Shown here one piece after another: positions 1 to 3,000 of a stretch of 11,309 bases of DNA. Made by a program: the position numbers. The stretch is from Bacteriovoracaceae bacterium (GTDB taxonomy: Bacteria; Bdellovibrionota; Bacteriovoracia; Bacteriovoracales; Bacteriovoracaceae): NCBI GenBank assembly GCA_041586955.1, contig JBFGZE010000097.1, positions 1 to 11,309 of the forward strand, read 5' to 3'. How positions within the stretch are numbered: position 1 is the stretch's first letter; every line of letters begins with the position of its first letter.

Positions 1-3000
1 CAATGCCGCCACGAGGAGTAAATTCCCCAATAACTTCAATGTATTTTGGTTTAATTAATGCTGCCAAGTCGTCACAAATTTTTTGCACACAATCTTCGTG
101 GAAGTCTCCATGGTTACGAAAACTAAATAGATATAATTTCAAGGACTTACTTTCGACCATCTTTTTGTCGGCCACATAATTGATAAAAATACGGGCAAAG
201 TCTGGTTGATTGGTTTTAGGGCATAAAGACGTGAATTCAGTACAAACAAAAGTCGTCCAGGCCTCACTGCCCGGGTTTTTATTGGGGAAGGCCTCAAGGA
301 CGTAGGGGGCATAGGTGGTCGGGTAGTCGGTATTGGCCTGGCCGAGAGTAAAGTCTTTTAGTTCTTTTGCGTTGCGCCCAGCTTTTTTCTTGATAATCTT
401 TTTTGCCATGAGATTTCGGTCCTTTTCATTGCCTTTCTACTAAATTTAGGTCAAATTCCATTATAGAATAATGATGGATTTTTAACATGGTGCAATCGAA
501 AAAGCAAAAGTCGCCGATGGTGATATTGGTGCAATTGGGGTCTCCGGCGTCGCCGGGATTGAAAGACGTCCGCAAATTCCTCAAGGAGTTTTTAGGGGAT
601 CCACGAGTGGTGGATATCAATCCTTTTTTGTGGAAAATTATTCTTAATCTATTTGTCCTGCCATTTCGGCCTGCAAAGTCTGCGCGCCTTTACCGTCGTA
701 TCTGGAATGAGGAAAAACAAGAATTCCCTTTGATTCGCTATACTGAGGATTTTGCCCAAAAGGTAGGTGAGCAATTAAAAGATCAGGGGATTCTGGTGCG
801 CCATGCCTATCTCCTGGCCGAACCGCGCTTTGCTGCTATTTGGGATGAATATGAAAAAGACCCAGGAGCTGTGAGCGAGTTTATTATCGTGCCTCTTTTC
901 CCTCAATTTTCAGAGTCTACCACTATGAGTGTGATTGATATTTGGAATAAAGAATTGCATCAACGTGCTATTTCGCCCAGTTATCGTTTTCTTAATTGCT
1001 TTCACACCTCAAAGGCCTTTATTGATAATTCCGTTCTTAGAATTAATGCTAGTTTAGCACAATTAACAAAAGAGAAAGGGAAGCTTGATGCTCTTGTTAT
1101 TTCCTTTCATGGTATCCCCAAGAGGCGAGTGCTTTATAAAGGGGATTTTTACTTCGATCATTGCTTTGAAACCTTTCAACTACTTAAAGAACGGATTGAA
1201 GGTATTGATAGCGATCGCATTCATATGACCTTTCAATCGAGGTTTGGGTCAGAGGAGTGGCTGACCCCTTATACCGAAAATTATTGTCAAAACTTAGTTG
1301 CCGAGGGGCATTCAAAAATGGCGGTTTATTGCCCCGCTTTTGTTGCTGATTGTTTAGAGACAATCGATGAGATTGGCACGGAGTTAAAAGAAGATATTGA
1401 GTCTCTCGGTGGAGAGGTTTATCCCATACCCTGTCTCAATGATGATGATCGCTGGGCACAAGACTTTGCCACATTCCTCCAAGCGGAGGTTAATGGCACT
1501 AACTTAGAGCGGGAGCAACTGGCCTATGAGTTCAGACCCGACCAATATGATAAAAAACCGGAGATCGTTATGCAGTCACCCCCTCTCAGTGCTCCCGCTA
1601 AGAAGAGCTTAAAACTTATTTTCCTGACACTTTTTCTCGATTTGGTGGGATTTAGTATTATCTTTCCCCTTTTTCCAGAACTGGCGAAACATTATTTAGA
1701 GGTGGATGCTGATAATTATTGGTTACGTATGATCTTTGATGGCATAGGCAATTGGGCATCAGTAACAGGTGGTGATCTAACGGGAATTGTCCTCTTTGGA
1801 GGAGCTCTTGGCGCTCTATATTCATTTCTCCAATTTCTGGCAGCACCCATTTGGGGTGGCCTTTCCGATCGTATTGGTCGGCGTCCGATTCTTCTTATGT
1901 CAGTCGGTTGTTTGGCCTTGAGTTATCTTCTATGGTTTTTTTCGGGCTCCTTTACTCTATTAATATTGGCGCGTTTTATCGGCGGTATTATGGGAGGGAA
2001 TATTTCTGCGGCGACGGCGGTTGTTGCGGATGTCACCACCAAAGAGAATCGTTCTAAAGGAATGGCCTTCGTCGGTATCGCTTTTGCGATGGGCTTTATT
2101 TTTGGCCCCGCTCTCGGTGGAATTTTCTCAATGATTGATTTAACAAAGCTATATCCCTCCTTGGTTAGCTACGGGGTGAATCCTTTTTCTATGCCAGCGT
2201 TAGTTGCTTTTATTCTCTCCGTTGTGAATTTTATCAATCTCTATCGTAGCTTTGACGAAACATTGCCGGCCGAAAAAAGAGGCCTTCATAAGAGCGACCG
2301 TTCAGTAAACCCTATTGTTCTCTTTAAGCCCCTGCCATATGCTGGAGTGAACCTGACCAATTTTGGTCATTTCCTCTTTTTGATGGCCTTTAGTGGTATG
2401 GAGTTTACTCTCACTTTCTTGGCCTTTGAGCGCCTGGGCTATCGAGCTATGGATAATGCCTATATGTTTATATTTATCGGCCTTATCATCGCCTTGGTTC
2501 AAGGCGGCCATGTTCGCCGCAAGGCCCATCAAGTAGGCGAGAAGAAAATGGTATTGCAGGGATTGGCCTGTATCATTCCAGGCCTTATTTTAATTGCCTA
2601 CGCCCAGGTAACATGGGTGCTCTACGCTGGTTTATTCTTTTTAGCAGTGGGATCGGCGATGGCAATCCCTTGTTTAACCTCATTGGTATCACTCTATACC
2701 CCCTCGCAATATCAAGGTCGCAGTGTCGGGATTTTTCGCTCTCTTGGTGCCTTGGCGCGGGTTCTAGGTCCGGTTTTGGCGAGTATTATTTATTGGAAGT
2801 ATGGGAGCCAATATCCATATTTAATCGGCTCTTTTTTCCTCTTTCTTCCTATTCTTATGCTGAGCCGCTTGCCTAAGCCTGCTTTAAAATAGGTAGTAAA
2901 AAGGTTTCCACAATATAATGGGCCGTCGATTGATGATAACTTTCATCAATCGAACGCAGTCCAGGGCAATTATTTATTTCCAAAAAAACTGGCCCTTTGT

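What a model noticed while it worked through the whole genome (the two positions that open the first line are those of the whole stretch)
487..2892. Sole ferrochelatase is fused to an MFSD10 (SLC75A1)-type MFS transporter
g02880 (801 aa) joins a complete ferrochelatase (residues 12-331) to a complete MFS transporter (378-797) in one frame and is the only ferrochelatase gene found in a genome that otherwise encodes the whole protoporphyrin-dependent haem pathway. The transporter half is specifically related to the mammalian orphan carrier MFSD10/TETRAN (SLC75A1). The fusion predicts that the last step of haem synthesis is coupled to membrane transport of a tetrapyrrole and gives a testable substrate hypothesis for the MFSD10 family.
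Evidence so far: Pfam Ferrochelatase 12-331 (E 2.5e-82) and MFS_1 378-762 (E 2.4e-43) on one protein; Swiss-Prot best hits mouse, cow, human SLC75A1, 34% id over 366-799 = 17-450 of 456 (E 3e-69), and Brucella ferrochelatase 38.7% over 12-337. PDB: MFS half hits mouse MFSD10 6s4m at E 1.6e-61 over 425 residues, next chain 3wdo at 6e-13. All 120 best homologues listed (60-67% id, 98-100% coverage, 783-824 aa) carry PF00762 and PF07690, from Bacteriovoracaceae/Halobacteriovorax/Oligoflexia, named only 'ferrochelatase'. GtrR g01280, HemL g01282, HemB g02708, HemC g01281, HemE g01285, HemF g01870, HemN g00310, HemJ g02555 present; no second ferrochelatase hit. Searches ferrochelatase+MFS fusion and MFSD10+heme, [...]
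(Added by a program. Inside this text positions count along the whole contig: contig position 1 is position 1 of the stretch shown here. "Call 12" and the like, gene names such as g00115 and contig names such as C1 are that model's own, and its searches are not shown. The text may have been shortened before it was handed on; [...] marks where a part breaks off. The agent that wrote the report below was given it as the finding of a first reader that could run no searches.)

Follow-up and report, generated by a model that had tools for sequence, protein, structure and literature searches.

The report
Ferrochelatase fused to MFSD10-type transporter
The only haem-forming enzyme of this predatory bacterium is made as one protein with a membrane transporter related to the poorly understood human carrier MFSD10, but relatives that no longer make haem keep the transporter alone, so the transporter has a job of its own.

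Summary
ORF 487..2892 (+) encodes 801 aa without a stop: a complete ferrochelatase (Pfam 12-331; TIGR00109 above its cut-off; catalytic His208 and Glu291 present) joined by about 35 residues to a 12-helix MFS transporter. That transporter's only close solved relative is MFSD10/TETRAN. It is the only ferrochelatase found in this 88%-complete genome, which also has HemB, C, L, E, F, J and a HemN-like gene.

The fusion is real and old. One frame spans both halves in 98 of 121 genomes of the order. It was seen only in this family: 25 of 28 family genomes, and none of 99 ferrochelatases elsewhere in the phylum.

Five related genomes lack ferrochelatase, HemE and HemB, yet keep haem-copper oxidases. 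They also keep the transporter alone at the same QueF-flanked locus, with 58-62 of 62 family-invariant residues intact. Orthologues in other phyla stand alone, away from haem genes. So the transporter works independently, and obligatory export of newly made haem is unlikely. Haem or porphyrin overflow efflux and plain membrane tethering both remain open. I found no paper describing this architecture. It is a new variant of a known enzyme; interest about 0.6.

The parts
487..2892 (+). Whole fused gene: 801 codons plus the stop codon
   Evidence: ATG at 487, stop at 2890-2892, no internal stop.
520..1479 (+). Ferrochelatase domain (residues 12-331), protoporphyrin type, cytoplasmic
   Evidence: Pfam PF00762, E 1.4e-81. 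TIGR00109 hemH equivalog, 209 bits against a cut-off of 124.6. Fold matches human and yeast ferrochelatase at TM about 0.8.
1108..1110 (+). Codon of His208, which aligns with the catalytic His263 of human ferrochelatase
   Evidence: Alignment to 2qd3 (FHGIP against AHSLP). F207 and H208 are invariant in 53 fused homologues. Codon checked.
1348..1359 (+). Asp288-Cys289-Leu290-Glu291, aligning with human Asp340-His341-Ile342-Glu343. The Glu is conserved; the His341 position is Cys.
   Evidence: the best-scoring chain is 2po7, the H341C variant (title). D288, L290 and E291 are invariant in 53 homologues.
1489..1590 (+). Linker, residues 335-368, between the last ferrochelatase helix and TM1
   Evidence: Variable in sequence and length across 53 fused homologues. 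AlphaFold nevertheless models it with pLDDT 78-92 and two short helices, 339-344 and 351-356.
1591..2865 (+). MFS transporter, residues 369-793, twelve transmembrane helices, DHA1/MFSD10 type
   Evidence: Pfam MFS_1 at 378-762. 6s4m at E 1.8e-61 and TM 0.88. Helices from the AlphaFold model. Best NCBIfam hit is the Tet(A/B/C/D) model at 162 bits, under its 475 cut-off.
1855..1887 (+). GGLSDRIGRRP (residues 457-467) in the TM2-TM3 cytoplasmic loop: MFS motif A (motif definition recalled)
   Evidence: Sequence. G457, S460, D461, G464 and R465 are invariant and kept in the stand-alone orthologues.
2074..2121 (+). GIAFAMGFIFGPALGG (residues 530-545) in TM5: motif C, the 'antiporter motif' of drug:H+ antiporter families (motif definition recalled)
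   Evidence: Sequence. G530, F533, G536, F537, G540, P541 and G544 are invariant.
2..409 (-). QueF (3' end cut by the contig end), divergently transcribed. It is a conserved marker that shows the stand-alone transporters of relatives sit at the same locus.
   Evidence: Pfam QueF. QueF lies beside the stand-alone MFS in 6 of 6 loci from relatives and upstream of the fused gene in 55 of 63 loci.
410..486 (.). 77-bp divergent intergenic region between queF and the fused gene, the presumed promoter region
   Evidence: Coordinates. Not analysed further.

Best explanation
This is a two-module inner-membrane protein.

Shown:
- The N-terminal 330 residues are a catalytically intact protoporphyrin ferrochelatase, and it is the only one found in the genome.
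- The C-terminal 430 residues are a complete 12-helix MFS carrier of the drug:H+-antiporter (DHA1) kind, in the same subfamily as animal MFSD10/TETRAN.
- The transporter is autonomous. Relatives that lost haem synthesis, or replaced the ferrochelatase, keep it alone, well conserved and at the same locus.

Inferred:
- The ferrochelatase has no signal peptide and MFS N-termini are cytoplasmic, so the enzyme sits on the cytoplasmic face, tethered by about 35 residues at the transporter's mouth.
- The carrier is an efflux-type proton antiporter for an amphipathic organic anion.
- The most likely substrate is free haem or protoporphyrin, moved out of the cytoplasm or inner leaflet as an overflow or homeostasis valve.
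- In haem-making species the tether places that valve where haem is released. In haem-scavenging relatives the same valve guards against overload from prey haem, as the MFS pump HatT does in Clostridioides difficile, which makes no haem.

It is not an obligatory export step for newly made haem.
For: Architecture:
- Domains, catalytic residues and fold.
- Sole ferrochelatase.
- Protoporphyrin pathway in the own genome: HemE, HemJ, HemF, HemB, HemC, HemL and a HemN-like gene.

The linkage is under selection:
- One frame spans both halves in 98 of 121 genomes of the order and in 63 of 63 Bacteriovoracales-type loci.
- In the single genome of the sister family (G001), hemH and an MFSD10-type MFS are separate genes whose stop and start overlap. 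That MFS's best PDB hit is 6s4m at 3e-25, against NorA at 2e-10.

Efflux type:
- Motif C and motif A are invariant.
- The nearest NCBIfam models are Tet-type efflux pumps, under their cut-offs.
- MFSD10 is listed as an organic-anion transporter (passages of PMC5627054; title of 6s4m).

Autonomy of the transporter.

Precedent for a haem efflux pump in an organism that makes no haem:
- HatT is an MFS pump and C. difficile lacks haem biosynthesis (passages of PMC12670364).
- S. agalactiae, a haem auxotroph, controls haem toxicity with HrtBA (abstract of PMC5238366).
Against: - There are no transport data and no direct evidence on the substrate.
- Outside this family the orthologues are not near haem genes. 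None of 17 loci has a ferrochelatase within 8 kb. Of 15 loci examined, 1 has hemB next door, while 8 sit behind a small cytidylyltransferase-like gene.
- The transporter's cytoplasmic loops show no fused-specific conservation. The entropy difference between stand-alone and fused forms is 0.13-0.49 in the loops against 0.42 overall.
- The linker sequence is variable.
- Three genomes (G065, G085, G107) lack HemE (HemB also absent in G065 and G085; G107, 87% complete, was not checked for HemB) and have no transporter orthologue. Six ferrochelatase-bearing genomes also lack the orthologue. Neither module needs the other.
- The genome has a canonical cytochrome c assembly protein, so no haem export function is obviously missing.
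Confidence: 0.4

Rival explanations
1. Membrane anchoring only. The transporter carries a substrate unrelated to tetrapyrroles. The fusion merely holds the ferrochelatase at the inner membrane, where its lipophilic substrate is made by the integral-membrane oxidase HemJ, and persists because both halves are needed.
For: - The transporter is autonomous and is kept without any haem synthesis.
- Orthologues in other phyla are not linked to haem genes.
- The linker is variable and no fused-specific conserved cytoplasmic surface was found.
- HemJ is present.
- Precedent for a C-terminal membrane segment on ferrochelatase: the CAB domain of cyanobacterial enzymes (passages of PMC8529089; listing and abstract of PMC3563542).
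Against: - A single helix would suffice as an anchor, whereas a whole, well-conserved 12-helix carrier is kept in more than 50 genera.
- In the sister family, hemH and an MFSD10-type MFS are separate but overlapping genes. That suggests co-expression matters even without a covalent tether.
- The linker is modelled with high confidence (pLDDT 78-92) and the whole-protein pTM is 0.72. This hints at a defined arrangement, but no PAE or coordinates were available.
Confidence: 0.3
2. Salvage import. The carrier takes up haem or protoporphyrin released from prey. The fused ferrochelatase metalates imported porphyrin, and relatives that make no haem use the carrier alone to import haem.
For: - The transporter is kept in 5 genomes that lack ferrochelatase, HemE and HemB yet encode haem-copper oxidases, so they must acquire haem.
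- The organisms are predators. This is taken from the names of the homologues (Halobacteriovorax, Bacteriovorax) and from general knowledge.
- Perland et al. place MFSD10 near SLC46 (passage of PMC5627054). From recall, SLC46A1 was first reported as a haem carrier.
Against: - Motif C and the nearest models point to proton-antiport efflux.
- Three HemE-less genomes lack the carrier.
- G055 keeps a ferrochelatase without HemE or HemB but has no carrier orthologue.
- No bacterial MFS haem importer came up in the passages read.
Confidence: 0.12
3. Metal supply. The carrier delivers iron, as Fe2+ or an iron chelate, directly to the ferrochelatase, in the way mitoferrin is thought to feed mitochondrial ferrochelatase (recalled). 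It remains useful for iron uptake after haem synthesis is lost.
For: It would explain both the fusion and the retention without haem synthesis. Weak NCBIfam matches include siderophore and metallophore exporters (FslB at 41 bits for this protein), far below their cut-offs.
Against: No DHA1-type iron importer is known to me (recall). The PDB search shows no specific similarity to ferroportin-type or siderophore carriers. No iron genes were seen in the neighbourhood.
Confidence: 0.07
4. Artefact: a mis-assembly, a read-through of two genes, or a decaying gene.
For: None found.
Against: - The same frame occurs in 98 of 121 genomes, including complete chromosomes.
- Catalytic and transport motifs are invariant.
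- The AlphaFold model has mean pLDDT 87.
Confidence: 0.01

Closest known systems
Protoporphyrin ferrochelatase (PpfC/HemH) of Gram-negative bacteria and mitochondria
   Same: Same family, fold and catalytic His/Glu pair. It acts in a pathway with HemF and HemJ.
   Different: It carries a whole transporter at its C-terminus in place of a short tail or a [2Fe-2S] extension. The position of human His341 is Cys.
Ferrochelatases with extra modules: the cyanobacterial/plastid enzyme with a C-terminal CAB transmembrane helix, and the Cutibacterium acnes ferrochelatase-ChdC fusion
   Same: These are natural C-terminal additions to ferrochelatase, and the CAB domain is a membrane segment (passages of PMC8529089; listing and abstract of PMC3563542).
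   Different: CAB is a single pigment-binding helix and ChdC is the next pathway enzyme. Here the partner is a 12-helix solute carrier. In the survey of 482 ferrochelatases the longest was 683 aa and no transporter fusion was noted.
Animal MFSD10 / TETRAN (PDB 6s4m; TC 2.A.1.2.73)
   Same: Same MFS subfamily: E 1.8e-61, 33-34% identity over the whole carrier, TM 0.88. It is listed as an organic-anion transporter.
   Different: The eukaryotic protein stands alone. Its physiological substrate is not settled, and no link to haem was found in the listing or the passages.
HatT of Clostridioides difficile (haem-responsive MFS efflux pump) and other haem efflux systems (HrtBA, PefAB/CD)
   Same: HatT is an MFS-type pump proposed to relieve haem stress, in an organism without haem synthesis (passages). 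This parallels the stand-alone carriers of the haem-auxotroph relatives.
   Different: Sequence relatedness to HatT was not tested, because no HatT sequence was at hand. HatT is regulated by a TetR-type haem sensor, and no such regulator lies beside this gene.
Tet(A)-class tetracycline efflux pumps (DHA1 family)
   Same: They are the best-scoring NCBIfam models, and motifs A and C are shared.
   Different: The score is 162 bits against a cut-off of 475, so this is not a Tet protein.

Membership tests
Ferrochelatase (PF00762; TIGR00109 hemH) | Profile score above the curated cut-off over the whole domain | tested here: met
   PF00762: 274 bits against a cut-off of 27, profile positions 4-313 of 317. 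TIGR00109 equivalog: 209 bits against 124.6.
Ferrochelatase (PF00762; TIGR00109 hemH) | Catalytic His (human H263) and Glu (human E343) | tested here: met
   His208 and Glu291 align to them. Both are invariant in 53 fused homologues.
Ferrochelatase (PF00762; TIGR00109 hemH) | Two-lobe ferrochelatase fold | tested here: met
   The AlphaFold model matches human and yeast ferrochelatase at TM 0.79-0.81 on the target.
Ferrochelatase, protoporphyrin type (PpfC) rather than coproporphyrin type (CpfC) | Genome context of the protoporphyrin-dependent branch (coproporphyrinogen oxidase HemF/HemN and protoporphyrinogen oxidase HemJ) | tested here: met
   HemF, HemJ and a HemN-like radical-SAM gene are in the own genome. 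Human and yeast enzymes score above CpfC chains. ChdC was not searched for.
Ferrochelatase | Iron insertion into porphyrin (enzyme activity) | not testable with these tools
   Needs an assay or complementation of a hemH mutant.
Major facilitator superfamily, DHA1-like | MFS_1 profile above cut-off and twelve transmembrane helices in two six-helix halves | tested here: met
   PF07690: 174 bits against a cut-off of 33.4. Twelve long helices with a central loop at about 589-618 in the model.
Major facilitator superfamily, DHA1-like | Motif A in the TM2-TM3 loop and motif C (antiporter motif) in TM5 (motif definitions recalled) | tested here: met
   GGLSDRIGRRP at 457-467 and GIAFAMGFIFGPALGG at 530-545. 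The key residues are invariant.
MFSD10/TETRAN subfamily | Specific full-length similarity to MFSD10, well above that to other MFS carriers | tested here: met
   6s4m at E 1.8e-61 against the next MFS at 3.1e-12. Foldseek E 7e-24 and TM 0.88 against NorA at 3e-13.
MFSD10/TETRAN subfamily | Transport of organic anions | not testable with these tools
   Known only from the literature on the animal protein.
Tet(A/B/C/D) tetracycline efflux pumps | Score above the NCBIfam cut-off | tested here: not met
   162 bits against a cut-off of 475.
HatT-type haem efflux MFS | Sequence relatedness to HatT and haem-responsive regulation | not tested
No TetR-type gene is adjacent.

The most novel reading that the evidence does not exclude
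The fusion is a haem synthase-transporter machine. Nascent haem, or surplus protoporphyrin, passes from the ferrochelatase active site directly into an MFSD10-type carrier that flips or exports it. The whole MFSD10 subfamily, including the human orphan carrier, would then transport haem or porphyrins. That would give the first enzyme-to-carrier hand-off for haem and a substrate for a human SLC.
Probability: 0.25. Interest if true: 0.85.

Novelty: new variant of a known kind. Interest (0 to 1): 0.6.

Why it matters
How haem leaves ferrochelatase and reaches its destinations without harming the cell is still an open question. In this family of predatory bacteria, the enzyme is covalently joined to a solute carrier in most genomes searched (98 of 121 across the order). 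The same family also offers natural controls: carrier alone, enzyme alone, the two as adjacent genes, and lineages that make no haem. Cultured members exist, for example Halobacteriovorax marinus SJ, which carries the fused gene, so the idea can be tested. If the carrier handles haem or porphyrins, it would also suggest a substrate for the poorly understood human carrier MFSD10. If it does not, the case shows that a conserved fusion need not indicate the substrate.

Tried and rejected
- Complex prediction on the two halves (ferrochelatase 1-340 against MFS 366-801, both from alignment A3) gave 'no answer', score 0.00. It is not used as evidence either way.
- The search for related loci with the 28-sequence alignment A1 failed for lack of a conserved stretch. 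The 8-sequence alignment A2 worked.
- The Dailey 2017 review could not be opened under the PMC id I recalled. Whether it mentions this fusion is unknown.
- Haem export for cytochrome c maturation as the missing function was rejected. The genome has a Cytochrom_C_asm protein, as do 3 of 5 haem-auxotroph relatives.
- A functional link to queF was considered, because the divergent pairing is conserved. It is absent from orthologues in other phyla, so I read it as inherited synteny.
- A lipid-related role was considered, because one relative (P0266, 41% identity) is fused to a PlsC-type acyltransferase and Verrucomicrobiota orthologues sit near a CDP-alcohol phosphatidyltransferase. This was not pursued.
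- I looked for a docking surface specific to the fused form by comparing per-column entropy in 31 fused and 33 stand-alone sequences. None was seen. The test is crude and confounded by phylogeny.
- The model's coordinates and PAE were not available, so the orientation of the active site relative to the carrier could not be examined.
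Full report
**1. The observation**

The window is a whole 11,309-bp contig (C97) of a 3.46-Mb genome that is 88.45% complete. 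ORF 487..2892 on the + strand starts with ATG and runs 801 codons without a stop.

- Pfam places Ferrochelatase at residues 12-331 (E 1.4e-81) and MFS_1 at 378-762 (E 6.3e-51).
- NCBIfam's hemH equivalog TIGR00109 scores 209 bits against a cut-off of 124.6.
- In the alignment to human ferrochelatase, His208 matches the catalytic His263. The stretch Asp288-Cys289-Leu290-Glu291 matches Asp340-His341-Ile342-Glu343. The best-scoring chain is the H341C variant 2po7 (titles).
- In an alignment of 53 fused homologues, F207, H208, D288, L290 and E291 are invariant.
- The transporter half hits MFSD10 (6s4m) at E 1.8e-61 over its full length. The next MFS chain is at 3e-12.
- An AlphaFold2 model built on the 53-sequence alignment has mean pLDDT 87 and pTM 0.72, with twelve long helices after residue 369.
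- Foldseek ranks 6s4m first (TM 0.88 on the target, 33% identity) and human and yeast ferrochelatases at TM about 0.8.

One small correction: the title of 6s4m says human, not mouse.

**2. Sole ferrochelatase and the pathway**

A six-frame PF00762 search of the own genome gives one match, this gene. tblastn with three divergent ferrochelatases hits only C97: the window's own, the 29%-identical one of G020 and the 40%-identical one of G001.

The genome holds:
- HemC, HemL, HemE and a HemN-like radical-SAM gene in a cluster on C21
- HemB on C83
- HemF on C41
- HemJ on C74

The enzyme therefore works in the protoporphyrin-dependent branch. The caveat of 88% completeness stands.

**3. How widespread is the fusion?**

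- All 120 best homologues are 783-824 aa and carry both Pfam families. They include Halobacteriovorax marinus SJ.
- Of 121 genomes sampled from the order, 98 have one uninterrupted frame spanning both halves. In 96 it runs from about residue 11 or earlier to 792 or beyond; G084 and G100 are cut by contig ends. G036 and G094 have pieces at contig ends that cross the junction.
- Of 80 loci fetched from species genomes, 63 are Bacteriovoracales-type. All 63 have the ferrochelatase directly upstream of the MFS, and 55 have queF divergent upstream.
- In a phylum-wide sample of 141 genomes, 25 of 28 genomes of this family have ferrochelatase frames of 786-832 aa.
- Outside the family, 99 of the other 113 genomes have a ferrochelatase. 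Every ferrochelatase frame there is 453 aa or shorter.

The fusion is therefore a trait of one family with more than 50 genera.

**4. The finding that changes the reading**

Seven genomes of the order carry the transporter orthologue alone, at 48-69% identity.

- *Five haem auxotrophs.* G024, G030, G056 and G081 (96-99% complete) and G119 (88% complete), from five genera, have no PF00762 match, no HemE and no HemB. All five keep haem-copper oxidase subunit I, and three keep a cytochrome c assembly protein. They use haem they cannot make.
- *Same locus.* In 5 of the 6 loci examined, the lone transporter lies directly next to a divergently transcribed queF. In four loci where both starts are well defined (L002, L004, L005, L007), 5-80 bp separate the two genes. 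In G030 an ankyrin-repeat gene lies between them. Three loci also have the RimK-like ATP-grasp and/or M14 peptidase genes of the window's neighbourhood. These are positional orthologues from which the enzyme domain is cleanly absent.
- *Still conserved.* They keep 58-62 of the 62 positions that are invariant in the fused family, including motifs A and C.
- *Genus g9 (G009, G020).* It keeps the lone transporter and uses an unrelated ferrochelatase inside a hemE / radical-SAM / amine-oxidase / hemH cluster.
- *Trees.* In trees of the transporter domain (FastTree on 110 rows; IQ-TREE quick on 60 rows), fused and lone forms interleave inside one supported clade. Parsimony needs 11 changes, and at least 5 are forced by starred branches. 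All rows outside the clade are lone. Some lone metagenomic proteins could be mis-called starts, but the seven genome cases were checked on DNA.
- *Conversely.* Genomes with a ferrochelatase but no transporter orthologue exist (G053, G055, G066, G086, G088, G103). So do HemE-lacking genomes with no transporter orthologue and no ferrochelatase match (G065, G085, G107). HemB is also absent from G065 and G085; G107 (87% complete) was not checked for HemB.
- *Sister family.* In its single genome (G001), hemH and an MFS gene are separate, with overlapping stop and start. That MFS is also MFSD10-type (6s4m at 3e-25, NorA at 2e-10), but it is a long branch (39 of 62 positions).

**5. The transporter outside this family**

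- The transporter half finds 18,082 representatives at E up to 1e-3 and 921 at up to 1e-30. Most are stand-alone proteins of 430-460 aa.
- The closest ones outside the order (49-56% identity) are in Verrucomicrobiota (Opitutales and relatives), Hydrogenedentota, Planctomycetota and Nitrospirota. None of these 17 loci has a ferrochelatase or queF within 8 kb.
- Of 15 such loci examined, 8 place the gene right after a roughly 160-aa cytidylyltransferase-like gene, and only one has hemB next door.
- Other families of the same phylum have only distant MFS relatives: 32-41% identity, aligned from about residue 70 onward. One of the 52 lies within 5 kb of the ferrochelatase.

The subfamily as a whole is not tied to haem genes. 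The family's ancestor may have acquired the carrier from outside the phylum; that is an inference.

**6. What kind of carrier is it?**

- The best NCBIfam models are Tet(A)-class efflux pumps, at 162 bits against a cut-off of 475. It is a DHA1-like carrier but not a Tet protein.
- GGLSDRIGRRP (457-467) and GIAFAMGFIFGPALGG (530-545) correspond to MFS motif A and to motif C, the signature of proton antiporters. The motif definitions are recalled; the sequences are and the invariance.
- MFSD10/TETRAN is listed as an organic-anion carrier, TC 2.A.1.2.73 (passages of PMC5627054).

These points favour efflux of an amphipathic anion.

**7. Is there a fixed interface between the halves?**

- The linker (335-368) varies in sequence and length. 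AlphaFold nevertheless models it at pLDDT 78-92 with two short helices, and the whole-protein pTM is 0.72. No PAE or coordinates were available.
- Per-column entropy in 31 fused and 33 lone sequences of the same clade differs evenly across regions. The overall difference is 0.42; cytoplasmic loops range from 0.13 to 0.49. No fused-specific surface stands out.

A rigid, co-evolved channel between active site and carrier is therefore not shown.

**8. Mechanism**

*Shown:*
- a bifunctional protein with an intact enzyme and an intact carrier
- the cell's only detected ferrochelatase
- a carrier that functions on its own in relatives

*Inferred:*
- The enzyme lies on the cytoplasmic face, tethered at the carrier.
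- The carrier is an efflux-type proton antiporter.

My preferred reading (confidence 0.4) is a haem or protoporphyrin overflow valve placed where haem is released. Haem-scavenging relatives would keep it against overload. This has a precedent in HatT, an MFS haem-stress pump of C. difficile, which lacks haem synthesis (passages of PMC12670364). PMC11442138 says only one MFS haem exporter has been reported in bacteria.

Nearly as likely (0.3) is plain membrane tethering next to HemJ, with an unrelated substrate. Import of prey haem or porphyrin (0.12) and iron supply (0.07) are less likely. Obligatory export of newly made haem is disfavoured by section 4 and by the presence of a canonical cytochrome c assembly protein.

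**9. Comparison with what is known**

Ferrochelatases with extra modules are known. The cyanobacterial CAB helix and the C. acnes ferrochelatase-ChdC fusion appear in passages of PMC8529089. That survey covered 482 sequences of 270-683 aa and notes no transporter fusion.

Searches that found no description of this architecture:
- ferrochelatase + major facilitator + fusion
- ferrochelatase + Halobacteriovorax
- ferrochelatase + Bacteriovorax
- ferrochelatase + MFS transporter + domain
- term look-ups in the 2026 Chem Rev history of haem biosynthesis, with 0 hits for 'major facilitator', 'MFS' or 'Bdellovibrio'

The library lacks most subscription papers, and the 2017 MMBR review could not be opened. 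Public records call the protein simply 'ferrochelatase'.

**10. Verdict**

This is a new variant of a known enzyme family and a natural system for testing how haem leaves ferrochelatase. Interest 0.6.

Noticed in passing
G024, G030, G056, G081, G119 (loci L002, L004-L007); also G065, G085, G107 and 14 further genomes of other families: Apparent haem auxotrophy recurs in this predatory phylum. Five Bacteriovoracaceae genomes lack ferrochelatase, HemE and HemB but keep haem-copper oxidases. In the phylum sample, 15 of 141 genomes have no ferrochelatase match: G024 and 14 from other families, mostly small genomes.
   Followed up: partly
L009 (G020:C1:222000-240000), genes at 7191-15988 on the - strand: Genus g9 carries a different ferrochelatase, about 29-31% identical to the fused one. 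It sits in a hemC-hemL-(two-component system)-hemE-radical SAM-amine oxidase-hemH cluster, while the MFS stays alone at the queF locus. This looks like a replacement of the terminal enzyme.
   Followed up: partly
L008 (G001:C2), 7632-8621 and 8621-9799: A 0.9-Mb genome of the sister family has hemH and a divergent MFSD10-type MFS as separate genes with overlapping stop and start. They are followed by a sigma-70 gene, rpsO and pnp.
   Followed up: partly
G055 (C80:3972-4934): This genome keeps a stand-alone ferrochelatase (42% identity), but no HemE or HemB was found at 96% completeness. It may be a lone ferrochelatase used for porphyrin salvage.
   Followed up: no
window 2873-3730 (-) and 3775-4821 (+): A RimK-like ATP-grasp ligase and an M14 (MpaA-like) carboxypeptidase form a divergent pair next to the fused gene. 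The pair recurs beside the fused or lone MFS in many related loci. Its function is unknown.
   Followed up: no
window 4952-6889 (+): A sigma-54 enhancer-binding protein with an unusual N-terminal PilZ domain, followed by GAF, AAA+ and HTH_8 domains. It may be a c-di-GMP-responsive activator.
   Followed up: no
window 7409-10502 (+): A cdaA-ybbR-glmM operon (the c-di-AMP synthase module), followed by pdxJ at 10615 to the contig end. This looks ordinary.
   Followed up: no
P0266 (797 aa, metagenomic): An MFSD10-like MFS (41% identity to the transporter half) is fused at its C-terminus to a PlsC-type acyltransferase. This is a different fusion partner in the same subfamily and hints at lipid-like substrates.
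   Followed up: no
L076-L081, L084, L087 (Verrucomicrobiota): In 8 of 15 loci examined, the MFS orthologue directly follows a roughly 160-aa cytidylyltransferase-like (CoaD-sized) gene. In 4 of them a CDP-alcohol phosphatidyltransferase was seen divergent upstream, and in 5 a class II fructose-bisphosphate aldolase downstream.
   Followed up: no
P0275, P0279: Two records named Halobacteriovorax marinus list a stand-alone 441-443 aa MFS at 70-72% identity, whereas strain SJ has the fused form (P0053). The split or fused state may differ between close strains, or the gene calls may differ.
   Followed up: no
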